IMG/VR virus record: IMGVR_UViG_3300028571_001115
Location: 1-60,313 of that record
Reading direction: 5' to 3' (one strand)
DNA length: 60,313 bases
Source of the DNA: a virus
Lineage: Duplodnaviria > Caudoviricetes
In this document: positions 9,089-60,244 of the stretch, in pieces
Numbering within the stretch: position 1 is the first letter of the stretch
How the letters are laid out: every line of letters begins with the position of its first letter
Notes under the pieces: model-generated
What the model was told of the DNA's origin: nothing
The model's input: the letters and a program-made list of their open reading frames with translations, nothing else
Databases searched by the model: none
Made by a program: the position numbers and the translations under genes

Positions 9089-9232
9089 CTCAGTCCCTCA
9101 TTTTTCGGGGACGTCTGAGCCGGATCGTGCGGGTCCATTCTCGATGTTGGTATTCGTTTGGATCGTCAACCATTCAGTGCAAAATTTATTGTCCACTGAT
9201 GGTTGACATCAGCTGAATGACTATGTATCGAA

Positions 9233-14676: not shown

Positions 14677-14783
14677 TGCTGTCCCTCAAACTGGGTTTGG
14701 AAGCAGCAGCAGCAACGAGTTGTCAGTCCGGGAGCCGCCTTTCGGCGGACAAGGTCAATGGATGGTGGTATTCGTTTTGGGCG

Positions 14784-14942
14784 TCAACCCCGGCGCAGGA
14801 ACCACTCGTGCGCGTTCTTGGTCAAGATCGCGTCCTCCAGGGCGTGGTGCGGGCTCGGGTTGAGGATGTGGTCGACACGCACGTCGCCAACCAGCTGCTT
14901 CAGGTCCATAACCATCATTGGCCACCCTTTCGGCAGGTCCAT
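14784..14942 (-). pseudogene. C-terminal fragment of a DEDDh 3'-5' exonuclease (Rv2179c-like)
   Basis: Manual translation MDLPKGWPMMVMDLKQL...HHALEDA; SD AGGAG; N-terminal catalytic half absent. Confidence 0.5.
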
Positions 14943-19299: not shown

Positions 19300-21312
19300 T
19301 CAGAAGTCGTCGCCGTCGTCGTCATCGACGTCCGAGGCATTGGTGACCGAGCGCCCATAAAGCCTGGGCACATGGCGCGTTTTCTTGTTGGTGCTGCGCC
19401 CGTACAAGCCACGGCCCTCGGTGCGGCGGTCAAATTCGCCGCGCTCAAGGTCTTCTTTTTCGTGCTTGTCCAGCTTGTCGCTGGGCCTATCGAGCAGGTT
19501 GACGTTGCGTGACCAGATCAGGGAGCTGGTGACCGTGTCGGTCCAGTCATCGTGCTTGCCGTTCGGGAATGCGGCGCATTCTTTGATCACGCCAGCCGTC
19601 ATTGGGCCGGGCAGGTACCAGACAGAGCCGGAGGCGAGCACCACGGACGCGGCGTGAGCGCGCGGCACCTTGCCGTTGGCCCCAGGCGGGAACGGCGGCA
19701 GCCACTCGACGATGGCCGGGTAGTGGAGACCCTGCTCATCGACGTACCGCGACCGCTCGCGCCGCAGCTCCTGCAGCAGCTGGATGCCGGACGCTTTCTT
19801 CTCGACGATGACCCATTCAGGTCGAAAGAACTTGACGTGTTGCTTGACGATGTCGAACAGGTCGACCGCCTTCACCTTGCCACGCCACGCCCCAAGCATG
19901 ATCACCTGCTGCTGAATCGGGTCGGTCTTATCGTCGCTGTCCTTGAGGCGGATCTGGCGCTTGCCCGGTTTCTCCTTGGTGAAGCTGACCCAGGCCGTCA
20001 TAGCTGAATAGTCGTTGTCTTGACCATCCTCAAACGCCGTATCGTAGACCAGCCAGCACTGCGCCCAATGCTCTGGGGGCTCGACGTCGCCGGGTCGGTC
20101 CTTCTGCTGTTGCGTTGGATCCGGCTTGCCGTGCGGCCAGCACTTCCAATATTTGCGCAGGAGGATGATACCCTCGCTGGCCGCTGGCTTCTGCTGGTAC
20201 AAGCTGTTCCAGGCACGCTCGCCCATGGCGCGGGCCAGCTCGACATAGCGGTCAGTGAACCACTGCGGCCACATCCGCTCGCCCAGGCGGCGATTGAGCG
20301 GGTCGTCGAGTGCGTCGCAGATCAGCGGGCAGCAGAACACCAACCACCAGCGACCGTCAGTGCCCCTCCAGAGCCCGCTCTGACCCTCCCACTTTTCGCC
20401 AAGTAGGTGACCGGCGGGATCGTCTTCGTGCCACCGCGTCTGGATCAGCAGCACCTTGCCGCCCGGCTTGAGACGGGTGAACAGGTCGTCCTTCATCGCC
20501 GCGTTGGTCTTCTCGCGGATGATCTCGCTCTCGGCCTCCTCACGGCCCGCGATCGGATCGTCGATGATCAGCAGGTCAGCACGGTTACCGGTGACGCCGC
20601 CCAGGATACCGACGGCGCGGTAGGTCGAGCCGTTCATCAGCGACCATGCGTCGACCGCTTGGTTATCGCCCGTCAACTGAGTATCCCATTGCGCGGCATA
20701 CTTGTCTGACCGGCAGATCGAACGCACCCGGCGACCGAACCGCTTGGCCAGCTCGGACCCATAGCTGGTGCCAATCACGTCGGTGCCAGGGAAGCGCCCC
20801 ATGACGTAGGTCGGCGCGATCACGCTGGCGTAAGTCGACTTGGCTGAGCCCGGGCTGAAGAAGAACATGATGCCGTCGGGGACGATGCCCTGGTGGCCAT
20901 TGGTGAGCGGCCCCTCGACCGGCATCTCCTCCATCATCCCCTGGACGGCAGACAGGATCATTGCGCCGTGCTCGGGGATGTCGAGTTGTTTGGGATAGAA
21001 CTCCCCCTCGTCGACCTCGTCCTTCTCAAAGTCGTATTCGGGGATCTCGACCTTGACCCCGCTGTTGATCTTCAGCATGTCGATCTGGGCCTTGCGGGCC
21101 AGCATCTTCTGCCGGTCATTCAAGTTCATCTTGCTGGGCGCGCCGGGCACCTCGATGTGCGCCGCGTACTCGACGATGTCGCCCTTGCGCTTGTCCTTGT
21201 GCATCACCTCCAGCGCCTGGATCAGGTCGCGACGCTCCATAGGCGTTAGCTGGCTCAGATCGGCGTTTTCGATGTCGTCGAGGTCCAGCATCTCAGTCGA
21301 TCTGCTCGTCAC
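19300..21312 (-). CDS. terL: Terminase large subunit (probable ATG at 21291)
   Basis: Walker A SPGSAKST, Walker B LLIIDDP, IQTRWHEDD, nuclease YDTA...EKKASG...FPNGKHDDWTD. Confidence 0.92.
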   Translation of the reverse strand: MTSRSTEMLDLDDIENADLSQLTPMERRDLIQALEVMHKDKRKGDIVEYAAHIEVPGAPSKMNLNDRQKMLARKAQIDMLKINSGVKVEIPEYDFEKDEVDEGEFYPKQLDIPEHGAMILSAVQGMMEEMPVEGPLTNGHQGIVPDGIMFFFSPGSAKSTYASVIAPTYVMGRFPGTDVIGTSYGSELAKRFGRRVRSICRSDKYAAQWDTQLTGDNQAVDAWSLMNGSTYRAVGILGGVTGNRADLLIIDDPIAGREEAESEIIREKTNAAMKDDLFTRLKPGGKVLLIQTRWHEDDPAGHLLGEKWEGQSGLWRGTDGRWWLVFCCPLICDALDDPLNRRLGERMWPQWFTDRYVELARAMGERAWNSLYQQKPAASEGIILLRKYWKCWPHGKPDPTQQQKDRPGDVEPPEHWAQCWLVYDTAFEDGQDNDYSAMTAWVSFTKEKPGKRQIRLKDSDDKTDPIQQQVIMLGAWRGKVKAVDLFDIVKQHVKFFRPEWVIVEKKASGIQLLQELRRERSRYVDEQGLHYPAIVEWLPPFPPGANGKVPRAHAASVVLASGSVWYLPGPMTAGVIKECAAFPNGKHDDWTDTVTSSLIWSRNVNLLDRPSDKLDKHEKEDLERGEFDRRTEGRGLYGRSTNKKTRHVPRLYGRSVTNASDVDDDDGDDF

Positions 21313-29488: not shown

Positions 29489-29691
29489 CACCCACGGATG
29501 ATGGTATTCGATTTGGCCGTCAACAGCTCGTCCAGCCCTCGCTCCAGCTTGACCACCCGCTTCAACAGCGCACTCATATGCAGCTTATTCTCGTCCTCGA
29601 TAGACGCTGCGACTAAAGCCTGCTTGCTCATAAGGCCGCATTGGCAGCGCTCGGTGGCCAAAGAGAATCTGTGGATGTGTTGGCTCATCAC
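29488..29691 (-). CDS. Hypothetical protein
   Basis: Coupled overlaps. Confidence 0.45.
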   Translation of the reverse strand: MMSQHIHRFSLATERCQCGLMSKQALVAASIEDENKLHMSALLKRVVKLERGLDELLTAKSNTIIRG

Positions 29692-35280: not shown

Positions 35281-35693
35281 AGGATCTCCGTAATGGTCAG
35301 GCCCGCATAGAGGGCTTCAAATAGCTTCTTCTTCACGCGATACGCCGGGTTCTTGCGGGTGGCCGGGCTCTTCACGTCTTCGATGATGACCTGACCCGTG
35401 TGGGTCTGATATCTGAAATCTGGCTTAATGGCAGCGACCTTGACTCCGTTGACGACGAGTTTATAGGTGACCTGCCTCTCCAGGCTCTTGATCTCGCCGG
35501 TCGCTTCCATAAGCTGCAGATCGCGCCAGCGCTTGGCCTCCCGCTTGCTGTCGATGACGATGTCGTCCCCATCGGCCTGGGGGATCACGACCTTGGTGTT
35601 CTTGTACTTGCCCGGCTTGCGGTTCGCCTTTGCCTTAAGATCGGCGATGATGCGACGGCCTTCAGGGCTTTTGACGGGTACGGTTTTGATCAT
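35277..35693 (-). CDS. DUF1064-family (PD-(D/E)xK-like) phage protein
   Basis: KYKN-K...DSKREA-R...L-RQV...PDF-Y...EDVKS...Y-VKKKL. Confidence 0.85.
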   Translation of the reverse strand: MIKTVPVKSPEGRRIIADLKAKANRKPGKYKNTKVVIPQADGDDIVIDSKREAKRWRDLQLMEATGEIKSLERQVTYKLVVNGVKVAAIKPDFRYQTHTGQVIIEDVKSPATRKNPAYRVKKKLFEALYAGLTITEIL

Positions 35694-36187
35694 GCTGCGA
35701 CCCTCTGGCTGCGGTCCCAGAACATTCCCAACTCTGACCGGCGCAGCGCATTAATTGATGGTTGACCCATGCCAACAAGCACAATGCCGTGGCCGGGCGA
35801 AGTGCCGACCGTTCCGTCGGGCCGGATAAACTTGGTCTTGCCGCGTGACCACAAAAGCGCCTCAGCGCGGTGCATATGATCATGCCACCATGCCGAGCTA
35901 GTGTATGAGCGGACGATTGCAATGCCGTTGCCGTGATCGAAAAATTTGGTCAGCCACGGGATGTGGCCATTGCGTCCACCAAACGGTGGGTTCATGAACA
36001 CAAGACCGCTCCAAGGCTGAGCGAGGCCATCATCGATCTTGGTGTAACAACGAACCGCAGGCACGTTGCACAAGTGAAGGCCAGGGGAGCACGGGTCGAG
36101 GTCGAAGGTCAACTTGAGACCGTCGAAGATCTCTCGCGGCGTATACCACTCGTCGCTTTCGCCAATGCTGTTTTCGTGCTCAGCCAT
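35690..36187 (-). CDS. Phage DNA N6-adenine methyltransferase
   Basis: SDEWYTP, FDLDPC, DGLAQPW, FMNPPF. Confidence 0.85.
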   Translation of the reverse strand: MAEHENSIGESDEWYTPREIFDGLKLTFDLDPCSPGLHLCNVPAVRCYTKIDDGLAQPWSGLVFMNPPFGGRNGHIPWLTKFFDHGNGIAIVRSYTSSAWWHDHMHRAEALLWSRGKTKFIRPDGTVGTSPGHGIVLVGMGQPSINALRRSELGMFWDRSQRVAA

Positions 36188-36258
36188 GCGTCCCTCATCT
36201 GGTCTCTCGCACACCCTTGCTGATTTGCATGCTATTGTCAACTAGCGGTGGACACATT

Positions 36259-37512
36259 TTATCGGCAAGCGTACACGCCCGTCACATAGGCCAGAGTGGC
36301 ATGTGCAATCTGCCGCTCGTCGGTCAGCCGGATCTGCTCTAGGTCGATCTGGGCCAGGGCCTCAACGGCATCCAGGTAGGCGCGGGCGTCACGCTTGCCT
36401 GCCTTGTAGGCTGCCTCGGTTGCGGTCAGCACCTGGGCAGCGATCGCCCGGCGCTTCCCCAGCAGGGCAACCTGACCGGTCCCAAGCTGGATGGTTGTCC
36501 ATGCAATAGATGCTTGACCGGCAACCTCGTCCTCGCTCGCGCTGGAGCGGTATGTCGCAGCAGACGCTGCCGCCCGGCGGCTCTCCAGATCGGCCTGCGG
36601 CTCGGCACCCCATGGCAGTGGCACCCGAGCCGTCACCTTGCCATAAGCCTCCTCAGCCTCGTACGTTCTGGCATATTGTACGCTATGCTTGACGCCCACC
36701 TGAAGTGCAACCTCCGGCAGCCTGGGCCTGGAGCGCTGCGCCAGCTGGATCGCTGCCGTATCTTTAGCCAGCCGTGCCTGCCTCAGCTGCGGTGCATGGG
36801 CCAAGACGGCAGCCCTGCACTCCTCCAGGCTGGCACAGGCAGGGGGCACTGGCTGGCTGATGACCTTACGGGCAGCGCTTACAGCTCCACCCCACAAAGC
36901 CAAGCGGCGATGCTCGGCCAAGGCCGCCCGCTGCTGCGTGTCGCCCTCTGCCAGCAGCCAGCGAGACAGCCGGTCCCGCACATCCAGCAGGTCGACCTCC
37001 GGCACGTCCTTGGCCTTCACCCGCTTGCTGACATCTGCCATGACCCGCTTCAGCTGGCGCTGAGTCTCTCCTGTAACCTTGAGCCGGTCATTTGTTGACT
37101 GAGCCTCGATCGCAATGGCGCGGGTTTCACGTGAAATTGATCCGCAGACATCATCCAGCGCAGCTGATCGTTGTGCAATCGTTGCGTCGGCAACCCTAAG
37201 TTCGTCGATCAGCAACTGGTCCTTGATGATGGGCTGCGTCAACCTGACCTCGGCACTCCATGGCCCTGGTGCACGGTCACGGATGGAAGGATCAGGCACC
37301 CCATTGATGGTGTCGCGTGTCCAGGCGGGTCCGATCTCGCCGGTCGCCTCCACGGTTGGCATCCAGTTCGCGATCACCCGGCGGCGTTGCGCGACCGCCT
37401 GAGCGAGGTCAGCCTTGGCTGCCATCACCCGGGGGTGATCGGAAACCTCGGGAGCCCAGCAGGGGGTTACTGTAATGCTATAACATATCATAGCGAGCAG
37501 CAGGCGTTTCAT
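36259..37512 (-). CDS. TolC-family outer membrane channel
   Basis: Signal peptide; HPRVMAAKA...WMPTV...LTQPI, repeated in second half (RLPEV...RVPL), YKAGKR---YLDA. Confidence 0.8.
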   Translation of the reverse strand: MKRLLLAMICYSITVTPCWAPEVSDHPRVMAAKADLAQAVAQRRRVIANWMPTVEATGEIGPAWTRDTINGVPDPSIRDRAPGPWSAEVRLTQPIIKDQLLIDELRVADATIAQRSAALDDVCGSISRETRAIAIEAQSTNDRLKVTGETQRQLKRVMADVSKRVKAKDVPEVDLLDVRDRLSRWLLAEGDTQQRAALAEHRRLALWGGAVSAARKVISQPVPPACASLEECRAAVLAHAPQLRQARLAKDTAAIQLAQRSRPRLPEVALQVGVKHSVQYARTYEAEEAYGKVTARVPLPWGAEPQADLESRRAAASAATYRSSASEDEVAGQASIAWTTIQLGTGQVALLGKRRAIAAQVLTATEAAYKAGKRDARAYLDAVEALAQIDLEQIRLTDERQIAHATLAYVTGVYACR

Positions 37513-37519
37513 GGATCCC

Positions 37520-39154
37520 TCACCTTATTGCCCGGCGAACCGAGCTTGTTACGATTGACGACAGCCATCCCGCCGCTGTCTGCGGTTGGCCGATGATCGT
37601 CACCTCGACCTCAGTGCCGAGCGCGATGGGCTCGGATGGCGTCAGCACGACGCGGAACGCCCCGTCGTCATACCGGTCAGATGATACCGTGCGGACCTGG
37701 GCGCGTATGGCGCGCCCGAAACGCACGAAGCTGGTCTTGATGCGCACCTCGGCCTGGGTGTCAGCCGCAACTGATGCACGGTCGACAGGATCCAGCTTGG
37801 CCTCGATGATGGGGTCGCTATCTGGCACCACGGTCAGCAGTGCGTCGCCGATGGCAACCGGTGTCCCAGGTGGGCCTGCCTCGATCTGCTGCACGCGCCC
37901 ATTCCTCGGGGCCGCAATCACGGTCCCGGTCAGTACGCGGTCAACCTCTGCTAGCCGCTCCTGCAGCTTCAGGATAGTGGATCTGCGGGCGTAGCTGCGC
38001 TCCAGCCATTCGCGCTCCTCGGTCGACTGGTAGATCAAGGCTTCTGTTAGGTCTGATTGAGGGCGCAGGCCGCGCTTTACGAGGTCTTCGGTCGCGGTGA
38101 CGCGTGAAGACACAAGTTGCTGCGCCTTGGTGCGTGCTGATGTCGAGGCCTGGAGTGTAGTCTCCTCCAGTCGCGCCTGGGCGATGATACTTTCCCGCTG
38201 TTTTGTATAATCAGCCCCGTCCAGTGTCAGCAGAGTATCGCCGCGCGAGACGTGGTCCCCCTCCCGCACCAGGAGCGTGGACACGCGCGACGTTACGATC
38301 GACTTGATGGCGGCAGCGTGGCCGTCAGGGGACACCACGCCGGTCATGACGGTCGTCCCCGGCACCGGCACCGCCAGGGGCAGCACAACCAGCGCGCCGG
38401 TCGTGACGCAGCAGGCGGCGAGGCGGTTGCCATAGCGCGTGACGTCATCGGACGCAGGCACCGGCCCGGCCTTGAGCGTGTTGGCCGCCAGGATGAGCCG
38501 AAAGCTGTGTATTGCCGCCTTCGCAAGCTGAAGGTTGCGGAAAACAGCGAAAACCCGGCTACAGATGCTGGCCACCAGGAATGCAGCCGACAACAGCACA
38601 CCTGGCGACAGGATGCCCCAGATCGCCAGAAGCGCGGACAGCCCCATCGCCAGGACGGTAGCCCCGGCCACGAGCCCCTGAGAGGCGATTGACTGGCCGA
38701 GCTGTTGCGCGGCCCAGATGGCAACAACCAGCAGGGCGATGAGCAGCAGGAACGACCAGTGCGCGGCAACGAGGCCAGCGATCAATATCGGCGTCATGCA
38801 CAGACAAAGGAGGTCCCACGGCACGTTGGCCCGCACCGCAGTGTCGATGACGCGCAGAGCCTCCTGCTTGCTGTTGGGTGCTACGATGCTGCGCGCGACG
38901 GCCCAGCAGGCAGCGAGGTACTGGGTGGCACTATGGGCCAGGGCGACATTGACGCCCATCAGCAGGCACGCCAGGACGCCCAGCACGGCCACGGTCTCGA
39001 TGCTGCGGCTGGGGATGGCACGGTCGGCCAGGATCAGCGCGTAGACACTCGGCACGGCTGAGAGCACCAAAGCGCAGGCGGCAGCGAGTGCTGCAAACCA
39101 GAGTCGGGTCTTGAGATAATGATCCACCACGACGACAACCCACCCCAGTTTCAT
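37520..39154 (-). CDS. Fusion of PrtD-like ABC transmembrane domain and HlyD-family adaptor; no ATPase domain
   Basis: VPSVYALILADRAIPSRSIETV plus several TM helices; then GVVSP...LLVREGDHV-RGD-L, coiled coil, IAAPRNG-V, LLTVVP, EAKLDP-D. Confidence 0.75.
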   Translation of the reverse strand: MKLGWVVVVVDHYLKTRLWFAALAAACALVLSAVPSVYALILADRAIPSRSIETVAVLGVLACLLMGVNVALAHSATQYLAACWAVARSIVAPNSKQEALRVIDTAVRANVPWDLLCLCMTPILIAGLVAAHWSFLLLIALLVVAIWAAQQLGQSIASQGLVAGATVLAMGLSALLAIWGILSPGVLLSAAFLVASICSRVFAVFRNLQLAKAAIHSFRLILAANTLKAGPVPASDDVTRYGNRLAACCVTTGALVVLPLAVPVPGTTVMTGVVSPDGHAAAIKSIVTSRVSTLLVREGDHVSRGDTLLTLDGADYTKQRESIIAQARLEETTLQASTSARTKAQQLVSSRVTATEDLVKRGLRPQSDLTEALIYQSTEEREWLERSYARRSTILKLQERLAEVDRVLTGTVIAAPRNGRVQQIEAGPPGTPVAIGDALLTVVPDSDPIIEAKLDPVDRASVAADTQAEVRIKTSFVRFGRAIRAQVRTVSSDRYDDGAFRVVLTPSEPIALGTEVEVTIIGQPQTAAGWLSSIVTSSVRRAIR

Positions 39155-39255
39155 GAGGCAGGCTGATCAGCCCGCGTTTTCCCTGGTCTCTCGGTTGTGG
39201 TATTCGCGGGTGGCGTCAAGTCGCCATCAAATCCCTTTTCAGTCTGGCGCTGATG

Positions 39256-40103: not shown

Positions 40104-40180
40104 GGTATGTCTCCCTGCATTGATAATCAAAACATAGATCATCAATGCAGGGATGTCAACTGTCAGTTGACTTAAAGATC

Positions 40181-40210
40181 AAAAAAGTGGGCGGTTGCTT
40201 TCCACCGCCC
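40181..40210 (-). terminator. Intrinsic terminator after porin
   Basis: gggcggt-ggaaagca-accgccc then T6. Confidence 0.75.
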
Positions 40211-40289: not shown

Positions 40290-41435
40290 TTAGAACTTCA
40301 CGATCGCACCGACCTTCATGACGTCAACCTTTTCGTCGGCATCCATGTGCTGCCAACCGGCATAGATGTCGAGCGCTGCCGCATCAAACGACTGCACGGC
40401 ACCGAGGCCGTAGAGCATCAATTCAGCTCCGCTACCCGAGTAAAGGCCATACTCGCCCATGAGGGTGGTTTTGCCATAGCCCGTGAAATTGCGCTCGATG
40501 CCGCCCGTGACGTGATAGCCGTCCAACGTCGCTTTCCCGACGGTGGTGTCATCAAACAGCGCAGCGAGGCTCACGTTGCCCTTGCGGCCATACGCGCCGG
40601 TCACGAACAGGCCGGTGGTGGTTTCCATAACCGAAACCGAGCCGCCGAAGAAACGTGGAGCGGCGCGCCGAGTTGGGTTGACGCAGTTCGTGGCAGGAGG
40701 GACTGGGGTGCAGGCCCCGAAGTAGTCGAGGTTAGCCTCTTCACGGTAACCGACCCCTGCGGCAATCTTGAAGGTGAGTAGTTCGCCAGCGTAGCGTGCC
40801 GAGATGTCCTTCTGATCTCCACCATCAGCCCAGGCAGCCGAGAGCGTGACACCCATCAGCGCAGGCGTGTCATAGCGCACGACGTCGCGGCGTGAGCCGT
40901 CAAAACCAAGGTCGAACTCGATCGGCAGGCCCGACAGGCTGAACGACTTGGAGACGCTGGCCGTGTTGGCGACGCTGATCTCGACGATACCGTCGGTTGC
41001 CTGCGAGGTGCGGCCCAGGCTCAGGCGACCGGCGGTCGCGCTGTCAAGGTACACGAAGCCGTGGCGGATACTCGTCTGCGCGTCGGCCAGGGTATCGATG
41101 CCGACTTCCAGGACGTAGCCAGCTTTGAGGTCTGGGCTGATCCGGCCCTCGCCGATGAAGCGCACGCGGCTCTGCTCCAGGCCGTTACCAGCGACGCCCT
41201 TCTCGGTGCCGTCAGGCGTGTCGATAATGAGCAGTTGCTGGTTCACTTGACCCGAGATGGTCAGGGTCACTTTGCGATTACCCTTCTTGGCGGCAGCGGC
41301 TTCAAGTTCGGCGATACGTTCTTCAATGTCGGCGCAGCAGGCTTTGCCGCCAAGGTCGGCGGCGAAGGCTGCAATGGATGATACGAACAGGCAACTCAGC
41401 GCCAGGAGCGCTGTGGCCAGGATCTTTGATTTCAT
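40290..41435 (-). CDS. Outer membrane porin (Hyphomicrobiaceae-type)
   Basis: Signal peptide, ADLGG-ACCADIEERIAELEA--AKKGNRKV-L-ISGQVN, VRYDTP, C-terminal Phe. Confidence 0.88.
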   Translation of the reverse strand: MKSKILATALLALSCLFVSSIAAFAADLGGKACCADIEERIAELEAAAAKKGNRKVTLTISGQVNQQLLIIDTPDGTEKGVAGNGLEQSRVRFIGEGRISPDLKAGYVLEVGIDTLADAQTSIRHGFVYLDSATAGRLSLGRTSQATDGIVEISVANTASVSKSFSLSGLPIEFDLGFDGSRRDVVRYDTPALMGVTLSAAWADGGDQKDISARYAGELLTFKIAAGVGYREEANLDYFGACTPVPPATNCVNPTRRAAPRFFGGSVSVMETTTGLFVTGAYGRKGNVSLAALFDDTTVGKATLDGYHVTGGIERNFTGYGKTTLMGEYGLYSGSGAELMLYGLGAVQSFDAAALDIYAGWQHMDADEKVDVMKVGAIVKF

Positions 41436-41572
41436 GGTTGGAGGACTCCTGTTGCGGTCAGCACGATGATGTCGCGTAGACCCGTTCGATGTTGGCGTCA
41501 ACTCTCGGCTGACTAGAAAGTTTGGAGCGAGGCAGGATTGCCTCACCCCATTCGTGATTTCGTGTCGGGGCG

Positions 41573-42273
41573 TTAGTTACTTGGGGGTACTGGTGGGGGC
41601 TTTGAAAGGAACGACGGCATCCCCGTTGCTTTCGGCACCGGCTGGGGCACCGCGTCGGGTGCCGGAGGCGGTGCGGATGATGTGGTGGTGACGGAGGGTG
41701 AGGCAGTAATTGCAGATACAGGGACGGAAGATCCTGGCCCCTTGATCACCTGGGCAAGGAAGGCCTGCAAGCTGGCGGCGCGACCTTCCAGCTGGGAGGC
41801 GATAGCGCGGTTCTGCTCGGCTACTGTCAGGCATTCGGCGGCCCTTGCGTTGAGCCACGGTACGGACCCCCCGGGTCTGAATAGGTTGGTGTAGCCCCAC
41901 CCAATGGCAGGAAGGGCAGTGCCGCCGACAATGCCCCGCTGGACGAGGAGGGCGGTGTCGACGTTGTTGAAGGTTTTGGTGAAGAAGGTGAAGAACTCTT
42001 GAGCGGAGGTAAGCTCGGCTGCGGCCATGGGACGGTGGCTCCTGCATTGATGATCATCTGCTCGTAGGCGGTGCAGTCCAGTTCGGCCCTACTGCGCCGT
42101 TTGACTGCGTCGTCACGCGCCTTGGCGGCGGCCTCGTATCCCTCCCTTGCTGCGGCAGTGTCGGCCTTTGGCTGGAACAGCGGGCCGGTGATGTAGCGCA
42201 CGAAGATCAGCGCAAAAACCACGATCAGGGCGCACTCGATCAGCTTGGTCCAGACCTCGGCGGTAATGTTCAT
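41573..42273 (-). CDS. Membrane-anchored hypothetical protein(s): two overlapping ORFs, possibly one frameshifted gene
   Basis: MNITAEV... N-terminal TM; adding one C at ~42030 joins it to ORF 41573-42028. Confidence 0.45.
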
Positions 42274-42328
42274 GCGATCCTCGCGAATATCTGCTAGACG
42301 TGATGATGGTATTCGATGGAGGTGGCTA

Positions 42329-43675
42329 GTGTCAGTTGAGCAACACAAAGCTGAAGATGACGATCGCAATAAGCAGTCAACTGGACGCAATCTGCTGGGG
42401 CGGGCCGGACAAGGTGCGCTATTGGCGCTGAGCCGGGCACAAAACCTCGCACAGGAGCTGGCCCAGTCTGTGGCGGTGATCGCTCAGCCGGTGCAAGCTG
42501 CAGTGCGTGCGGTTCAGATGGTGCCAACCAGCGTCCTAAAAGCGGCAGCGCGTCATCTGCGGGTGCTGCAGCAGGCGGCATCAGCAACGGAGGCTGGGGC
42601 GCGGGTGGCGGGTGTTGCGATGAACGCGGCCATGGCAACCTCGCCGCTGATGGAAGCATCGATCCTGGCCGCACTCGACCTCAACAGCGAGGGTGCCGTC
42701 AAGGAGACTGCCAAGAAGCTGACAAACGAACAGGCTGACTACGCCGCTAAGGCCATCGCGTTCGCCCAGGAGACAGCAACCCAGACCCACGACACCGGCA
42801 AGGCGTTATCCAGCCTGACGGTCGGATACGACCTCGCTCAGCAAGCAGACAATTTCGGCCGCACTGATGCGCATGCTGAACAAATGGCGCCACTCATCCT
42901 CTATGCCAAGATTGCGCCACCGGTTATTATCGGAGTTGACCTCGGCGACACGCGCGAGAACACCGGCATCCACATCATGGTCACGGTCCACGACGAGTAT
43001 GTTGGTGACGTCACCAAAATGCTCAGCCTATCGGCACAGAACTACGAGCTGGTCAAGGGGCTCGACATCCCGTTCTCGTACACCGACAGCTTCGGCCACA
43101 CCGTGTCGACCACGATCCGCGTGCCGATCCTCGACGTTAACGAGGTGCCCGAGACGCCGGTCATCATCTCGACGTTCGATGGGCAGCAGCTGGTGATCAC
43201 CGCGACCGCAGCAGACCCCGACGGCGAGATCCTGCCCTCGCAGACATGGACCTACACTGTGCAGCAGCTGGCGGCAGGAGCACCGAGCTTCACGGCGACG
43301 TTCACTGATGCTGGTGGGTTGATGTCGAGCGCGCTGATCGACCCGCCAGAGCTGGCAAAACAAGCGGCATTGGATTCGCCGGTTGCCCCGACCATGCTGG
43401 GGTATTCGCTGGCAAGTTTGCCGGAAAACCAGGGCGGTGTGTTGATGGTCACGGCCTACGACGCAGTGGATGGGGTGATCGTACGGGGCTATGCGCTCTC
43501 GGCCCAAGACCACGAGACCACCCCCCAAATTTTGCAGCACGTCGAGATCATGAACTCCGCCGGGCTCAGCACCAGCAGTGACGTGTCGATCACCATCACC
43601 GACGTGTCGATCACCATCACCGACGTCTTCGACATCAACTGGAACGAGGTAGTCGATTCGCCGCCGATTATTTAG
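42329..43675 (+). CDS. Cadherin-like repeat protein
   Basis: GGAGG SD and GTG at 42329; NYE...YTDSFG...ILDVNEVP and LPEN...DHE...SITITDV motifs. Confidence 0.65.
   Translation: MSVEQHKAEDDDRNKQSTGRNLLGRAGQGALLALSRAQNLAQELAQSVAVIAQPVQAAVRAVQMVPTSVLKAAARHLRVLQQAASATEAGARVAGVAMNAAMATSPLMEASILAALDLNSEGAVKETAKKLTNEQADYAAKAIAFAQETATQTHDTGKALSSLTVGYDLAQQADNFGRTDAHAEQMAPLILYAKIAPPVIIGVDLGDTRENTGIHIMVTVHDEYVGDVTKMLSLSAQNYELVKGLDIPFSYTDSFGHTVSTTIRVPILDVNEVPETPVIISTFDGQQLVITATAADPDGEILPSQTWTYTVQQLAAGAPSFTATFTDAGGLMSSALIDPPELAKQAALDSPVAPTMLGYSLASLPENQGGVLMVTAYDAVDGVIVRGYALSAQDHETTPQILQHVEIMNSAGLSTSSDVSITITDVSITITDVFDINWNEVVDSPPII
43580..43626. repeat. 21-bp in-frame tandem duplication
   Basis: gacgtgtcgatcaccatcacc x2 (DVSITIT). 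Confidence 0.9.
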
Positions 43676-44880: not shown

Positions 44881-45897
44881 TCAATTTTTCAGGTCATTGC
44901 TAAGCTCGTAAACGCTGTCACTAGTCAGATTATAATCCCTCGCAATTTGCTTGGCCCTCTCATATCCAATCTGGACAGCACCAACCACAGCACCAATTTT
45001 GTCTCCGTTCTCAAAGCCAGTGACTGCAGCGCCCACGCGGAGGCTGTGGCCGCTGAACCTGTCTGCCTTGAGCCGTGCCTCGGCAGCAGTGTCGCCCTGG
45101 CGAGCGAAATACTCGGCGATGCGCTTCTTGATGATTTTCGAAACCGACTCGTCGTCCAATCGCTCGCGCCCGACGGTGCCCCACCGCGAGACGTTGCGCA
45201 GGATCGCCTGCCCTGGGCGGACCTGGGCGAATGCCAGCCACTGTTCGACAGCGTCGAGCAGTGGCTCATTCTGAGCCCTTGACATCAACAGCGCCTCTTT
45301 TTTTGTCGTGTACCGCACAACCATGCGCTGTGGATCAATCGTAAGAAATAATCCACCACCCTCCTCTGAGCAATCTAGATCCAGCGCAACCAAATCAGAG
45401 CGACGAAGCGCAAACGAGTACCCAAGCGCCAGAAGGCAGGCGTCGCGCAATTCAAGGGGTGTGCCACCCATGCCCCGCAGGACATCCAGGATCAGAGATG
45501 CCCGCATCGGGGCCGTTAAGGTTGATTTCATGATTTGAGGTTCGGCCCGCCTAGCATCCCTCAAGATCGCCACAATAGCGGGTGCTGTCGTGTCGAAGTG
45601 TTGCCCCTTTTCGGCATGCACAGACTTGATGGCGGCGACGGCGTTGCGCAACGTGCTCAGGGCGTGGCCTTTGCCGTCAAGCTTCATCCGCTTGCCGCCT
45701 CTATCGCCCTCGTTTGCACGCAGGGCGATCCAGTTAGCGACGGCCTCTGCGGTGGCTGGAAAGGGCGACACGCCGGTCGCGGCGCAATGGTCCAGCCACA
45801 GCTTCCACTGGCTGGCGTATGCCCGCCTTGTGTGAGGCATTAAGCCATGAGAAAAATTGCCACCCTGGTCGGCTTCGTCTTTGATAAAACGCTTCAT
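44881..45897 (-). CDS. Cre-like tyrosine recombinase, divergent C-terminus
   Basis: HTRRAY--QW, RDACLL-LGY--ALRRSDL, FSGHSLRVG. Confidence 0.8.
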   Translation of the reverse strand: MKRFIKDEADQGGNFSHGLMPHTRRAYASQWKLWLDHCAATGVSPFPATAEAVANWIALRANEGDRGGKRMKLDGKGHALSTLRNAVAAIKSVHAEKGQHFDTTAPAIVAILRDARRAEPQIMKSTLTAPMRASLILDVLRGMGGTPLELRDACLLALGYSFALRRSDLVALDLDCSEEGGGLFLTIDPQRMVVRYTTKKEALLMSRAQNEPLLDAVEQWLAFAQVRPGQAILRNVSRWGTVGRERLDDESVSKIIKKRIAEYFARQGDTAAEARLKADRFSGHSLRVGAAVTGFENGDKIGAVVGAVQIGYERAKQIARDYNLTSDSVYELSNDLKN

Positions 45898-54324: not shown

Positions 54325-54837
54325 TCACGCAGCGCATAGTTCGCGAACGCGATCCGGCAGACTGAACACATCTCCTGCTTCGGCACCCAAACCTCCCGAG
54401 CCACCCAGGCAGCGCCGGGCATGATCCACGCACCACGACAGACCCATCACCGATGGCTTGCCGCAGTACCGCACGTCGCCGACCGGCTCGCCCGCGATGT
54501 GACGGCACGACGGTGCCACCTCATCGAGATCGTGAATGGAGATAAGGTCATCCCTGAGGGCCTGCTCCATCTCCATTCGCGCCATCGCCGCCGCATGCTG
54601 CACATCTGCCCGCAGGGCAGCAACAGCGAGTTTGGCGACACCGTGCTTGCGGCTTTTGTAGAGCTGATTGCGCGCCTGGTGGCCCCGGCCAATGCCGAGC
54701 CGATCCACCTTTGCCGAAATCATCCCAGTCGTACACCCGTCACCCAGCCGCTCGGCGATGACCTCGTAAATCAGCCCCTCTTGCCTCACCATTCGGGTCA
54801 GTGCTGCGACCCGCTCTTCGGTCCAATATCGTGCCAT
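54325..54837 (-). CDS. gcrA: GcrA-family cell-cycle regulator homologue
   Basis: WTEERVAAL...IAERLG...MISAKVDRLG; ISIHDL...CR---GEP...YCG-P....SWC--H. Confidence 0.85.
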   Translation of the reverse strand: MARYWTEERVAALTRMVRQEGLIYEVIAERLGDGCTTGMISAKVDRLGIGRGHQARNQLYKSRKHGVAKLAVAALRADVQHAAAMARMEMEQALRDDLISIHDLDEVAPSCRHIAGEPVGDVRYCGKPSVMGLSWCVDHARRCLGGSGGLGAEAGDVFSLPDRVRELCAA

Positions 54838-58582: not shown

Positions 58583-58931
58583 GACCGTCAGTGCCCTGGT
58601 CTGGCGCGAGGGCACACGACCGCGTAGTCTGCGCTGGCTCCGTGAGGACATGGCGCGCCGTGGCTTTGCCAGAAAGGTCGGCGGACGCTACGTCACGACA
58701 CTGGAGATGGTCGAGCGATACAAGGATGATTTAATCGGATGCGTGAAAAATTTGCAATCAGAGCCACCCTTAAACCTGCCAGTCGCATCAAAAACGGCGT
58801 CACGTATTGGAGCGCCAGAGGCAACGTCCCCGTCAAAAAAGAGGACGGCACGATTGCCCATCAGCGAGTCGACATTGGCCTTGGAAAAGCTGCAAACGCT
58901 GCGGAAAGAAAAGCGGAGTGTGCGCGCCTAA
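58554..58931 (+). CDS. Putative excisionase-like protein
   Basis: Overlaps integrase start; RWLRE...RKVGGRY. Confidence 0.45.
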   Translation: MTNALTQVDETVSALVWREGTRPRSLRWLREDMARRGFARKVGGRYVTTLEMVERYKDDLIGCVKNLQSEPPLNLPVASKTASRIGAPEATSPSKKRTARLPISESTLALEKLQTLRKEKRSVRA

Positions 58932-60244
58932 ATAGTGAGTACGAGGAGCGGGCGAAGGCGAGTGGCAAAAGAATGACTTTCGCCAGGGCGTGCATGAATT
59001 ATTGGGATGCTGGGCACGAGCCGTGCTTTATGTCAGATCGAATAATCGCAGCCATCGGCGACATGAATTGCGCCGATATTGACGACACGGTCATGTTGCG
59101 GGTGGCCCAGAAACTATTCCGCAGAGAAGCGTCCCCTGGCTATGTCAACCGGCACCTTTATACGCCGGTCAACGCTGTCCTGAAGATGGCCTCTAAGTCG
59201 AAGGTCTGCCCACCACCAGATCTCACGCGCCCAAAGGGCCACAAGTCGTCGCCCCAGAAGGCGATCCCAGATGACGCTTGGTACTCCAAGGTCGAACCAT
59301 TCCTAACGCCGCACCTGCGCGCCCTGGTGGCTTTCATGACCCTGCACGGTCGCCGTCTTGGGGATGCGCTCAACGCCGCCCGGGGGGACTACCTTCGAGA
59401 CCAGGGCGTGCTGATGATCGGCAAGGACAAGATGGGCAACGCCCTGCAGATCCGCCTCACCGTACACGTCATCAAGTGCATTGAGGCGATGCCGGATTTT
59501 GGCCAGCACAAGCACCTGTTTCGGTATGGTCCAGTAGCTCCGTCGAACGTCCGCCGGGACCTGCAGAGGGCGTGCCTTAAGGCTGGCGTACCTTATTTCT
59601 CCCCGCACTCCTTGGGCCGCCACGCCTTCGCGACCCGCATGCTGCGCGCCGGGTTCTCGCTCCAGTTCGTGAAGGACGCGGGTGGGTGGAAAACGATCGA
59701 AATGGTGTCGAACCGGTACGGCCACCTTGCCCACAGCGAGGTCAGCGCCGCCGTCGAGTCTGTGTCGGTCGATTTTGCCAACGGCAACGAGAGCGCCATC
59801 GCGGCAGCCTACAAGCTGGCGGACGAAGCCTTGTCTGTACCCACACTGCCGAAGGTCGACCTTGATCATCCGCTTGCTCGCCAGGAGGCGCTGATGCGCC
59901 TGCGCGGCACGAGCCCTGCCTGGGTCTATTTCTTCTACTGCTCGGGCGCGATCAAGATCGGCGTCTCGACTGACGTCCAAAAGAGGCTGAAGAACATCAA
60001 TGGAGGCAACAGCAACACCATCTACCTCGTCGGTCTGCTGCCGGGGTCGTTCCAGCTTGAAGGCGAACTGAAAGCTCGGTTTGACAAGTTCGCTACCAGT
60101 GGAGAGTGGTTCAGGGCTGAACCAGAGCTGCTTCGCTTCATCGACGTGAATGCTGACGGAAAACCCCTGATCGACGGTGGAAAATTGGTGGAAAAAGATT
60201 TTCGCCTCGCCCTGCCAAAGTTGGATGATGGTTTACCTCAATAA
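58739..60244 (+). CDS. int: Tyrosine integrase with C-terminal T5orf172/GIY-YIG-like domain
   Basis: HGRR, HSLGRH-FAT, GGW...NRY; then WVYF...IKIG-S-DV-KRL...E...F...GEWF. Confidence 0.88.
   Translation: MREKFAIRATLKPASRIKNGVTYWSARGNVPVKKEDGTIAHQRVDIGLGKAANAAERKAECARLNSEYEERAKASGKRMTFARACMNYWDAGHEPCFMSDRIIAAIGDMNCADIDDTVMLRVAQKLFRREASPGYVNRHLYTPVNAVLKMASKSKVCPPPDLTRPKGHKSSPQKAIPDDAWYSKVEPFLTPHLRALVAFMTLHGRRLGDALNAARGDYLRDQGVLMIGKDKMGNALQIRLTVHVIKCIEAMPDFGQHKHLFRYGPVAPSNVRRDLQRACLKAGVPYFSPHSLGRHAFATRMLRAGFSLQFVKDAGGWKTIEMVSNRYGHLAHSEVSAAVESVSVDFANGNESAIAAAYKLADEALSVPTLPKVDLDHPLARQEALMRLRGTSPAWVYFFYCSGAIKIGVSTDVQKRLKNINGGNSNTIYLVGLLPGSFQLEGELKARFDKFATSGEWFRAEPELLRFIDVNADGKPLIDGGKLVEKDFRLALPKLDDGLPQ

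What the first reader, a model, noticed from the sequence alone, without database searches (positions are those of the whole stretch)
36259..39154. Phage-encoded minimal type I secretion-like apparatus: ABC-TMD::HlyD fusion plus TolC, no ATPase
Seen: one 544-aa ORF whose first ~225 aa resemble a shortened PrtD membrane domain, running in frame into an HlyD adaptor; TolC follows 7 nt later; no ABC nucleotide-binding domain in the window; the phage late-type motif lies upstream, so the unit appears wired into phage regulation. Known: T1SS needs ABC (TMD+NBD), adaptor and TolC as separate parts. Inference: an ATP-independent trans-envelope conduit, a hijacker or dominant-negative of host T1SS, or a lysis/exclusion device.
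Basis: partly seen in the sequence, partly recalled or inferred. Interest (0 to 1): 0.82.

Follow-up and report, generated by a model that had tools for sequence, protein, structure and literature searches.

The report
Motor-less mini secretion duct in phage
A temperate freshwater phage carries, under the same promoter motif as its head and portal genes, a shrunken type I secretion set whose ATP motor is deleted and whose membrane part is fused to the periplasmic adaptor; the fusion is a rare conserved protein family, so it is probably a working device of unknown purpose.

Summary
On the minus strand, a 544-aa ORF (37520-39154) is followed 7 nt later by a 417-aa TolC-family gene (36259-37512).

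**Anatomy of the fusion**
- Residues about 14-205 are a six-helix PrtD-type ABC-exporter membrane domain. The TM4-TM5 cytoplasmic loop is deleted and the TM2-TM3 loop is shortened (hhalign 97.4%, E 1e-11).
- The membrane domain ends where the ATPase domain would begin.
- A basic linker then leads into a complete HlyD-type adaptor that keeps its own membrane helix and has a hairpin about half the usual length.

- No ABC ATPase domain occurs anywhere in the 60.3-kb record, which CheckV estimates as 100% complete.
- The fusion is not a one-off relic. An exhaustive HMMER search found 8 further 50%-identity clusters with the same collinear architecture.
- A 22-nt motif shared exactly with the head, portal and one other operon lies 43 nt upstream.

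**What remains open**
- Function is unproven. I favour a motor-less T1SS-derived duct made late in infection.
- I could not retrieve the gene neighbourhoods of the relatives.
- Earlier notes of this scan report ATPase-less ABC-domain::HlyD fusions on other, bacterial DNA. I found none in print.

The parts
39198..39219 (-). Late-type promoter motif TTGACG-N7-CGAATACCA, 43 nt upstream of the fusion ATG
   Evidence: 4 exact copies, all on the minus strand, at 9148 (head operon), 14766 (portal), 29502 and 39198. Six matches at <=2 mismatches against 0.06 expected. Flanks aligned.
37520..39154 (-). 544-aa fusion gene: trimmed PrtD-type ABC membrane domain, linker and HlyD-type adaptor (P0001)
   Evidence: ORF. 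Domains. Eight collinear relatives. AlphaFold2 model with the 9-row alignment: mean pLDDT 85.0, pTM 0.58.
38540..39115 (-). aa 14-205: six-helix membrane domain derived from a PrtD-type ABC exporter. The TM4-TM5 loop is reduced to about 6 residues and the TM2-TM3 loop is shortened.
   Evidence: Hydropathy peaks. HMM hits to PrtD ORFs. hhalign 97.4%, E 1e-11. Helices 4-32, 34-49, 52-90, 97-131, 134-151, 155-178 and 184-206 in the model.
38426..38539 (-). aa 206-243: basic cytoplasmic linker, in the place of the NBD and of HlyD's cytoplasmic N-terminus
   Evidence: Seven Arg/Lys between residues 200 and 244, read from the sequence. This is the least conserved segment, mean 21% identity. The PrtD alignment ends at residue 222 of the fusion, corresponding to PrtD residue 331, whereas ABC_tran starts at 373 in that PrtD ORF.
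38360..38425 (-). aa 244-265: the adaptor's own membrane helix
   Evidence: Hydropathy peak at 246-264. Helix 236-261 in the model. PDB HlyD (8dck_C) aligns from its residue 74 to query residue 258.
37523..38359 (-). aa 266-544: periplasmic adaptor with lipoyl and beta-barrel domains, an alpha-hairpin at aa 314-409, and a conserved C-terminal helix at aa 527-543
   Evidence: Pfam and NCBIfam. Best Foldseek PDB matches are MacA, EmrA and AcrA/MexA adaptors, E 1e-13. The hairpin is about 95 residues shorter than in 5 ordinary neighbouring T1SS adaptors, and the tip G-L-[TKR]-[PSA] aligns with theirs.
36259..37512 (-). 417-aa TolC-family outer-membrane channel gene, 7 nt after the fusion stop
   Evidence: PF02321 4.7e-29 and TIGR01844 7.9e-18 (64.6 bits, below the curated 225.15). 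Junction. No PDB sequence match at E<=0.01, and no other cluster in the word-based search.
40131..40171 (-). Perfect operator palindrome (40155-40171) overlapping a sigma-70-like promoter (TTGACA-17-TATGTT). It heads the small ORFs that precede the fusion.
   Evidence: The palindrome GTCAACY-N3-RGTTGAC has 17 matches at <=1 mismatch against 0.03 expected. Promoter scan.
40189..40210 (-). Intrinsic-terminator-like hairpin with a T run, closing the porin gene
   Evidence: 7 pairs, 6 G-C, then TTTTTT.
40290..41546 (-). Porin gene (418 aa), the upstream neighbour. A possible third envelope component, but a separate transcription unit.
   Evidence: PF13609 Porin_4 1.1e-16. Terminator downstream.
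36237..36253 (.). Operator palindrome (1 mismatch) directly after the TolC stop and ahead of the Dam methylase gene

Best explanation
The two genes encode a miniaturised type I secretion apparatus that has lost its motor.

Shown here:
- The fusion protein derives from a PrtD-type ABC exporter gene and the adaptor gene that follows it in ordinary operons.
- The ATPase domain, the TM4-TM5 loop (which in type IV ABC exporters forms a coupling helix), part of the TM2-TM3 loop, the adaptor's cytoplasmic N-terminus and about half of the adaptor's hairpin have been removed.
- The six membrane helices, the adaptor's own membrane helix, its lipoyl and barrel domains and a T1SS-type hairpin tip are kept.
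- The topology is self-consistent: the exporter domain ends in the cytoplasm and the adaptor helix goes out.

Inferred:
- Six fusion protomers form the adaptor tube, and their membrane domains pair into three ABC-like dimers. This fits the one-to-one count of the solved HlyB-HlyD complex.
- The tube docks the phage's own TolC trimer.
- With no ATPase and no coupling loop for one to dock on, the assembly works as a passive or membrane-potential-dependent duct or envelope bridge.
- It is made late in the lytic cycle together with virion proteins, to let some phage or host product out or to alter envelope permeability.

The cargo is unknown.
For: Origin and trimming:
- The N-domain profile hits PrtD-type ABC ORFs that lie directly upstream of the closest ordinary adaptors in 6 of 10 loci, plus a contig-edge fragment in a seventh. 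Four of 4 scanned have ABC_membrane plus ABC_tran.
- hhalign gives 97.4%, E 1e-11, with gaps at both cytoplasmic loops, and the alignment ends before the NBD.

Selection rather than decay:
- Nine 50%-identity clusters (494-597 aa) are collinear from the first helix to the C-terminal helix.
- All 8 relatives carry HlyD domains.
- Over 36 pairs, the membrane domain averages 28.9% identity against 35.9% for the periplasmic part.
- Invariant residues include R45, A46, H132 and G185.

No motor: PF00005 has 0 matches at E<=1 in a record rated 100% complete.

Stoichiometry: three HlyB dimers with six HlyD (PMC11026475, one passage of the Introduction).

Coupling helices: the TM2-TM3 and TM4-TM5 loops contact the NBDs. 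In Aquifex PrtD the TM2-TM3 coupling helix is already replaced by a loop (PMC8277102, passages).

Pairing of the membrane domain:
- Two copies of aa 1-265 scored ipSAE 0.60 against a best control of 0.00.
- In the tool's calibration, that mark was reached by 20 of 30 proteins solved as pairs of one chain and by 1 of 23 proteins solved as single chains.
- The three runs agree in at least 96% of contacts, and the partner pLDDT is at least 77.
- The interface is symmetric, between helices 1-2 and helices 5-6.
- Because ABC exporter dimers are solved, this pass may reflect likeness only.

Fold: mean pLDDT 85.0, with adaptor matches in the PDB.

Late wiring.

Translational coupling to TolC.
Against: - No function was measured.
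- No neighbourhood of any relative could be read, so it is unknown whether they sit beside TolC, in phages, or beside an ATPase gene.
- The R-x3-L-x6-S/T TolC-binding spacing is absent from the hairpin tip in 0 of 9 members.
- Both curated T1SS models score far below their cut-offs (TIGR01843 83 against 208.65; TIGR01844 64.6 against 225.15).
- One member (P0007) lacks almost the whole hairpin.
- No conserved charged residue lies in mid-membrane to suggest a proton path.
- No candidate cargo with a recognisable T1SS signal was found. The 476-aa neighbour proposed as a cadherin-type cargo hit no Pfam or PHROG family.
- A host ATPase or host exporter acting in trans is not excluded.
- The word 'late' rests on a shared motif, not on expression data.
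Confidence: 0.4

Rival explanations
1. Interference device. The fusion and the phage TolC do not transport anything themselves. They poison or capture host machinery, either by pairing the motor-less membrane domain with a host PrtD-type half-transporter (a dimer with one ATPase cannot close its ATP sandwich) or by titrating the host's TolC or adaptor. That would stop host type I secretion of surface proteins, for exclusion of other phages or easier release of progeny.
For: The membrane domain keeps the predicted ABC-like dimer interface and the PrtD-type periplasmic-face motifs (invariant R45-A46 and H132). It aligns with PrtD of Alphaproteobacteria, and the phage's GcrA-like regulator (PF07750) suggests a host of that class; that GcrA is restricted to that class is my recollection. 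Ordinary T1SS operons of the same lineage are common in such genomes: 5 of 5 genomes searched had several adaptor matches.
Against: A pure inhibitor would not need its own TolC, a full adaptor, or translational coupling of the two genes. The trimmed loops and shortened hairpin make mixed assemblies with full-size host parts geometrically awkward. There was no hit to any defence model in PADLOC for 8 of 8 local proteins.
Confidence: 0.2
2. Lysis or envelope-breaching device. A late-made, motor-less bridge between the inner and outer membrane serves in host lysis. It could do so as a leak that collapses the envelope barrier, or as a functional stand-in for spanins.
For: It shares the motif of the head and portal operons. 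Pfam scans of 55 distinct ORFs of the record found no lysozyme, amidase, holin or spanin family at E<=0.01, so the lysis genes are unassigned. A membrane-anchored, Pro/Ser-rich 187-aa ORF and a porin lie just upstream.
Against: No known adaptor-TolC complex fuses or ruptures membranes. ORFs under 110 aa were mostly not scanned, and divergent endolysins are easily missed. One family member lies on a 2.5-Mb bacterial contig, though that could be a prophage.
Confidence: 0.12
3. Trans-powered pump. The fusion is the membrane and adaptor part of a working ATP-driven or secondary transporter whose energy-coupling subunit is supplied by the host or by a gene not recognised here. The set would then be an ordinary efflux or secretion moron, as in lysogenic conversion.
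For: Sources label relatives as 'multidrug efflux pump' or 'AcrA'; these are automatic names. The phage is temperate, with a CI-like repressor and an integrase. Earlier scan notes describe ATPase-less fusions in TetR-controlled efflux-like operons of bacteria (not checked by me).
Against: The TM4-TM5 loop that carries a coupling helix in type IV exporters is reduced to about 6 residues (PMC8277102 passages), so the usual docking site for an ABC ATPase is gone. No ATPase domain is present in the record. The promoter motif is that of virion genes, not of a lysogen-expressed moron.
Confidence: 0.13
4. Hitch-hiking remnant. The cassette is a captured piece of host DNA with no role for the phage, and it persists only because this phage lineage is young.
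For: It is absent within 10 kb of the Dam gene in 46 of 46 related viral loci. No other family member was found in IMG/VR or in GenBank phages. The sequence is virtually invariant across the lake metagenome runs laid (4 of 18 runs), so selection within the lineage cannot be measured.
Against: The architecture is conserved down to 25-30% identity across 9 clusters without frame disruption. The gene carries the phage's own motif and tight coupling to TolC. G+C content (0.62-0.63) matches the rest of the record.
Confidence: 0.1

Closest known systems
PrtDEF / HasDEF-type type I secretion systems (ABC exporter without C39 domain, HlyD-family adaptor, TolC-family channel)
   Same: Gene order is exporter, adaptor, channel. 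The membrane domain aligns with PrtD-type exporters over all six helices. The adaptor has lipoyl, hairpin and barrel domains and a hairpin tip that aligns with ordinary neighbours' adaptors. The TolC-family channel covers the whole TIGR01844 model.
   Different: There is no ATPase domain. The TM4-TM5 coupling loop is deleted and the TM2-TM3 loop shortened. Exporter and adaptor are one polypeptide. The adaptor's cytoplasmic N-terminus is replaced. The hairpin is about 95 residues shorter. The genes lie on a phage under a virion-gene motif. No substrate gene is recognised.
HlyB-HlyD inner-membrane complex of E. coli (PDB 7SGR, 8DCK)
   Same: The best PDB sequence match of the adaptor half is 8dck_C, E 5.1e-10. 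The solved complex has three exporter dimers and six adaptors, so its one-to-one ratio is what a fusion enforces (PMC11026475 passage).
   Different: HlyB carries a C39-like domain and an ATPase. HlyD has a longer hairpin and a cytoplasmic N-terminus that takes part in substrate-triggered TolC recruitment (that last point is recalled, not from a call).
ATPase-less ABC-membrane-domain::HlyD fusions noted earlier by this scan in bacterial TetR-HlyD-TolC operons (e1-697629, e1-908888, e1-3581922, e1-4572790, e1-3036249)
   Same: The same class of architecture: exporter membrane domain in frame with an adaptor, no ATPase, TolC next to it (AI notes, not checked here).
   Different: Those are described as about 730 aa with a full-size membrane domain of about 310 aa of the bacteriocin/HlyB type, chromosomal, mostly in Bacteroidota, under TetR. 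The present family is 494-597 aa, PrtD-derived and loop-trimmed, and here phage-borne. None of them appeared among the 9 hits of the exhaustive search with aa 1-250, so the fusions are probably independent; kinship was not tested.
MacA / AcrA / EmrA periplasmic adaptors of tripartite efflux pumps
   Same: These are the best structural matches of the model (Foldseek E 1e-13 to 1e-9), with a similar hairpin length.
   Different: They are separate proteins without an exporter domain. They carry the R-x3-L-x6-S tip motif (PMC3391258 passages), which is absent here.

Membership tests
Type I secretion system (ABC exporter, adaptor, TolC) | ABC exporter with a nucleotide-binding (ATPase) domain | tested here: not met
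   PF00005 has 0 matches at E<=1 in six frames of the 60,313-base record (CheckV 100%). Controls hit 14 of 14. TIGR01842 scores 20.5 bits against a cut-off of 510.15.
Type I secretion system (ABC exporter, adaptor, TolC) | Six-helix type IV exporter membrane domain of the PrtD kind | tested here: met
   hhalign 97.4%, E 1e-11, 216 columns. HMM hits to PrtD ORFs in 7 of 10 loci. Pfam ABC_membrane itself gives no hit at E<=0.1 on the fusion, so the domain is divergent and trimmed.
Type I secretion system (ABC exporter, adaptor, TolC) | HlyD-family membrane-fusion adaptor | tested here: met
   PF13437 at 48 bits, above its cut-off of 22.2. Foldseek matches adaptors. The subfamily model TIGR01843 scores 83.1 bits, below its 208.65 cut-off.
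Type I secretion system (ABC exporter, adaptor, TolC) | TolC-family outer-membrane factor | tested here: met
   PF02321 at 102 bits, above its cut-off of 22, in two stretches. TIGR01844 scores 64.6 bits, below its 225.15 cut-off.
Type I secretion system (ABC exporter, adaptor, TolC) | Dedicated substrate with a C-terminal signal or RTX repeats encoded nearby | tested here: inconclusive
   No Pfam or PHROG family for the neighbouring ORFs, including 42245-43675. Secretion signals cannot be recognised with these tools.
TolC-docking adaptors with RLS/RLT tip motif | R-x3-L-x6-S/T at the hairpin tip (PMC3391258) | tested here: not met
   0 of 9 members have the spacing at the tip. Instead, 8 of 9 share [KR]-x-[LV]-x-P at the tip, which aligns with G-L-T-[SAP] of 5 ordinary T1SS adaptors.
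New family: trimmed PrtD membrane domain::HlyD adaptor (P0001-P0009) | Collinear membrane domain of about 200 aa, then linker, then adaptor, with no ATPase | tested here: met
   9 of 9 are aligned over the full length. The 8 relatives all have HlyD domains and no ABC_tran at E<=0.01.
New family: trimmed PrtD membrane domain::HlyD adaptor (P0001-P0009) | TolC gene adjacent; phage or prophage setting | not testable with these tools
Scans of viral, metagenome and genome collections recovered no relative's locus.
Spanins (Rz/Rz1) | Inner-membrane coiled-coil protein plus outer-membrane lipoprotein that fuse the membranes | not tested
   No homology was sought or found. This is only a functional analogy considered under the rivals.
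Known anti-phage defence systems (PADLOC) | Match to a defence-system protein model | tested here: not met
   0 families for 8 of 8 local proteins at E<=0.01.

The most novel reading that the evidence does not exclude
A phage builds its own ATP-independent channel through both host membranes from a stripped-down type I secretion system and switches it on with its virion genes. That would be a new kind of phage egress, lysis or export device. It would also be natural evidence that the membrane half of an ABC exporter can do useful work with no ATPase at all.
Probability: 0.2. Interest if true: 0.85.

Novelty: new variant of a known kind. Interest (0 to 1): 0.7.

Why it matters
ABC exporters are defined by their ATPase, and type I secretion by an ATP-driven exporter. 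A conserved family has cleanly removed the motor and its coupling loop, yet keeps the membrane helices, the adaptor and a coupled TolC. It therefore offers a natural test of what the membrane domain and the adaptor tube do on their own: scaffold, gate, passive or potential-driven channel.

In a phage under a virion-type promoter, it could also point to an unrecognised step of late infection, such as release of a product, envelope weakening or exclusion.

The set is small (2.9 kb, two genes) and so easy to express and image. It matches the one-to-one count of the solved HlyB-HlyD complex, which makes a six-plus-three assembly a concrete structural prediction.

Tried and rejected
**Deletion relic unique to this phage: rejected.** Eight further clusters share the architecture.

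**NBD elsewhere in the phage: rejected for this record**.

**Relatives' gene neighbourhoods: not obtained.**
- Viral scans with P0001, A2, P0004, P0007, P0002 and P0003 found no relative.
- Metagenome scans with A3 and P0004 found none.
- The genome scan with A2 found only ordinary separate PrtD plus HlyD operons.
- 0 of 401 genomes of the order of G001 matched at E<=1e-35. Only 3 candidates per genome were scored, so this is weak.
- There was no match in plasmids or GenBank phages.

**Word-based protein searches.** Searches with the fusion, with A1 and with TolC returned only the query's own cluster. They missed P0002-P0009, so they say nothing about rarity.

**dN/dS from natural variants: not possible.**
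- The stretch occurs in 18 listed runs of 15 studies of lake and freshwater metagenomes.
- In the 4 runs laid, the pieces were identical: 28 of 31 listed pieces had 0 other letters, one had 1, and two short 35-36-nt overlaps had 5.
- The lower word shares reflected fragmentary cover, not divergence.
- No RNA holder was listed.

**Other attempts.**
- The single-sequence AlphaFold2 model was poor (pLDDT 48) and was discarded in favour of the 9-row model.
- Foldseek on the whole model reported only the adaptor half.
- PDB sequence search with aa 1-250 gave only a chance-level hit.
- Defence-system membership: no PADLOC hit.
- Cadherin-type cargo at 42245-43675: no Pfam or PHROG family.
- The ESM Atlas gave viral 250-aa hypothetical clusters at 0.93 with under 170 shared features, and ABC membrane clusters at 0.89. 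These are leads only and carry no ids to follow.

**Literature.**
- Four searches (listings and abstract starts only) showed no description of an ATPase-less exporter-adaptor fusion or of a phage TolC set.
- Term look-ups in PMC8277102 (only the first 300,000 of 747,818 characters are held) showed none either.
- Subscription papers and supplements were not seen.

Full report
**What is there.** The window is itself a whole virus record: 60,313 bases, one contig, classed as linear by IMG/VR, with a CheckV completeness estimate of 100. It is a temperate phage with these genes:
- large terminase at 19300-21312 and portal at 11950-14676
- capsid and SU10-type adaptor
- primase-helicase and helicase
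- a CI-like HTH plus S24 repressor, a Cro-like protein and a GcrA-like regulator
- an integrase with a C-terminal T5orf172-type domain

GcrA suggests an alphaproteobacterial host; that GcrA is restricted to that class is recalled, not tested. Nearly all genes run on the minus strand.

At the finding's coordinates lie a 544-aa ORF (37520-39154) and a 417-aa ORF (36259-37512), both on the minus strand. They are separated by 7 bases, and a purine-rich stretch overlaps the first gene's TGA stop.

**The two proteins.**
- The second is a TolC-family channel. PF02321 scores 4.7e-29 in two stretches, and TIGR01844 covers model positions 13-398 of 414, though at 64.6 bits it is below the curated 225.15.
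- It is very divergent. There is no PDB sequence match at E<=0.01 and no PHROG family.
- The C-terminal 300 residues of the first protein are a HlyD-type adaptor: HlyD_3, Biotin_lipoyl_2, and TIGR01843 at 1.9e-23 but below its cut-off. The best solved relative is HlyD of 8DCK, E 5.1e-10.
- The N-terminal 205 residues show six hydrophobic helices, followed by a basic linker and a seventh helix that aligns with HlyD's own membrane anchor.
- Arg and Lys counts read from the sequence are 14 in the predicted cytoplasmic segments against 2 in the periplasmic loops. This is consistent with an N-in exporter domain followed by an in-to-out adaptor helix.

**Is the N-terminal part really an ABC membrane domain?**
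- Single-model scans gave only a 61-residue match to PrtD (E 1.4e-4) and nothing for Pfam ABC_membrane.
- An exhaustive HMMER search of 1.84 billion representatives with aa 1-250 found nine proteins at E<=0.001, the query's own cluster included.
- All eight others (494-597 aa) match over about 200 residues at their own N-termini and carry HlyD domains in their C-terminal halves. None has an ATPase domain.
- The nine align collinearly from the first helix to a conserved C-terminal helix.
- A profile of the N-terminal part was run against six-frame ORFs of ten bacterial loci that hold the nearest ordinary adaptors. It hit an ORF in seven of the ten. Six of these lie immediately upstream of, or overlapping, the adaptor gene; the seventh, L005, is a contig-edge fragment.
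- The four ORFs that I scanned all have ABC_membrane plus ABC_tran.
- Profile-profile comparison with six such PrtD-type ORFs gave 97.4% probability, E 1e-11, over 216 columns.
- The alignment runs from the first helix to the helix that precedes the ATPase domain. It has two gaps: about 16 residues in the TM2-TM3 loop and about 60-70 residues in the TM4-TM5 loop.
- In type IV exporters these loops form the coupling helices that contact the ATPase domains. In Aquifex PrtD the first is already replaced by a loop (PMC8277102, passages).

So the family has lost the motor and also the main docking element for one.

**The adaptor is trimmed as well.**
- Aligned with five ordinary neighbours' adaptors, its hairpin lacks about 95 residues, while the tip (G-L-[TKR]-[PSA]) aligns.
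- The R-x3-L-x6-S/T spacing described for MacA, AcrA and E. coli HlyD (PMC3391258, passages) is not at the tip in any of the nine.
- One member, P0007, lacks nearly the whole hairpin.

**Relic or working gene?**
- Across 36 pairs, the membrane domain averages 28.9% identity (22.6-44.9), the linker 21.0% and the periplasmic adaptor 35.9% (26.2-50.4).
- Frames are intact at this depth of divergence, and residues such as R45, A46, H132 and G185 are invariant. This argues for purifying selection on the whole fusion.
- Close-range dN/dS could not be done. Cluster members are 100% identical apart from one fragment, and the lake-metagenome contigs laid on the stretch were identical to it.

**Structure.**
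- With the nine-row alignment, AlphaFold2 gave mean pLDDT 85.0 and pTM 0.58. The helices match the hydropathy peaks, with a 47+44-residue hairpin.
- Foldseek against the PDB returned MacA, EmrA and AcrA/MexA adaptors. The membrane half could not be searched on its own.
- Two copies of aa 1-265 were predicted to pair symmetrically through helices 1-2 and 5-6. The ipSAE was 0.60 against a best control of 0.00. In the tool's calibration that mark was reached by 20 of 30 proteins solved as pairs of one chain and by 1 of 23 proteins solved as single chains. The runs agreed in at least 96% of contacts, and the partner pLDDT was at least 77.
- Since ABC exporter dimers are solved, this shows likeness rather than proof of binding.
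- The solved HlyB-HlyD complex has three exporter dimers and six adaptors (PMC11026475, one Introduction passage). That is the one-to-one ratio a fusion enforces.

**Regulatory setting.**
- The motif TTGACG-N7-CGAATACCA occurs exactly four times, all on the minus strand. The copies lie ahead of the head operon (9148), the portal (14766), the LPD23-protein genes (29502) and 43 nt ahead of the fusion ATG (39198). Six matches at up to two mismatches compare with 0.06 expected.
- Further upstream, the porin gene ends in a terminator-like hairpin (40189-40210). A perfect copy of the phage-wide palindrome (17 matches against 0.03 expected) then overlaps a sigma-70-like promoter at 40131-40171, ahead of three small ORFs.
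- Another palindrome copy follows the TolC stop, before the Dam gene.
- The pair is therefore embedded in the phage's own control network. Sharing the virion-gene motif is the only evidence for late expression.

**Distribution.**
- There are no relatives in GenBank phages, IMG/VR or plasmids.
- The 46 viral loci that share the neighbouring Dam gene carry no adaptor, TolC or family member within 10 kb. They are only distant kin of this phage.
- Cluster records show members on contigs of 8 kb to 2.5 Mb. One is in an NCBI genome, and sources name them efflux adaptors.
- Their neighbourhoods could not be read (closed, and the scans listed above were empty).

**What it most likely does.**
- Shown: derivation from a PrtD-adaptor-TolC operon, clean loss of the motor and coupling loop, conservation of the fusion, and coupling to TolC.
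- Inferred: a six-plus-three assembly spanning the envelope without its own ATP hydrolysis, made late.
- I give 0.40 to a passive or potential-dependent duct or bridge.
- The rivals are: interference with host type I secretion (0.20), a trans-powered pump (0.13), a lysis device (0.12) and a functionless passenger (0.10).
- Pfam found no lysis enzyme among the 55 distinct ORFs scanned. This keeps the lysis idea open but is weak, since small ORFs were mostly not scanned.
- No defence model matched.

**Comparison and novelty.**
- It works like, and descends from, a type I secretion system, but it fails the defining ATPase test.
- This scan has noted ATPase-less exporter-domain::HlyD fusions before on other DNA: Bacteroidota TetR operons, about 730 aa, with a full-size membrane domain. 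I did not check those notes.
- The present family is a separate, PrtD-derived, loop-trimmed and shorter form, and the first seen on a phage in these notes.
- Four literature searches and look-ups in one large review found no printed description. Subscription papers and supplements were not seen.
- I rate it a new variant of a known kind, interest 0.70.

Noticed in passing
window 9148-9169, 14766-14787, 29502-29523, 39198-39219 (all -): An exact 22-nt motif, TTGACG-N7-CGAATACCA, sits ahead of the head, portal, LPD23-protein and secretion-like operons. The -10 region after it is weak (CATCNN or AACCGA), which suggests an activator- or alternative-sigma-dependent late promoter class.
   Followed up: partly
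window, 17 sites, e.g. 18340, 26103, 40155, 36237: The palindrome GTCAACY-N3-RGTTGAC has 17 matches at <=1 mismatch against 0.03 expected, mostly at gene starts or ends. It looks like a phage-wide operator network.
   Followed up: partly
whole window: Pfam scans of 55 distinct ORFs found no lysozyme, amidase, holin or spanin family, although the record is rated complete. The lysis genes are unidentified.
   Followed up: partly
window 41827-42390 (-) and 41573-42028 (-): A 187-aa ORF with an N-terminal membrane anchor, a charged helical stretch and a Pro/Ser-rich tail is overlapped out of frame by a 151-aa ORF. It lies just upstream of the porin. The layout is reminiscent of nested spanin genes. 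No family hit.
   Followed up: no
window 40290-41546 (-): A complete Gram-negative porin gene (Porin_4, 1.1e-16) lies on the phage with its own terminator-like hairpin, next to the TolC and adaptor genes. That makes three envelope proteins within 5.3 kb.
   Followed up: partly
window 58739-60244 (+): A tyrosine integrase carries a C-terminal MUG113/T5orf172 (GIY-YIG-like) domain. ARAGORN found no tRNA gene in the window.
   Followed up: partly
window 54325-54837 (-): A phage-encoded GcrA-like cell-cycle regulator (PF07750, 1.3e-12) lies beside Cro-like and CI-like genes. Together with the Dam-family methylase at 35690-36241, it hints at methylation-linked control of late genes.
   Followed up: no
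protein P0007 (family member from an NCBI genome, 2.5-Mb contig): It lacks about 75 alignment columns covering nearly the whole adaptor hairpin, so it can hardly reach TolC in the usual way. It may be a further reduced or differently used form.
   Followed up: no
ESM Atlas look-up of aa 1-250: The three nearest clusters by language-model features are hypothetical proteins of about 250 aa, 100% viral, at score 0.93 with 158-165 shared features. These could be stand-alone trimmed membrane domains in phages, or chance; no ids were given to test.
   Followed up: no
window 44881-45897 (-): A second, weak integrase-family recombinase (PF00589 7.1e-5, phrog_1 3.2e-8) lies in the middle of the genome next to an endonuclease VII-like gene.
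   Followed up: no
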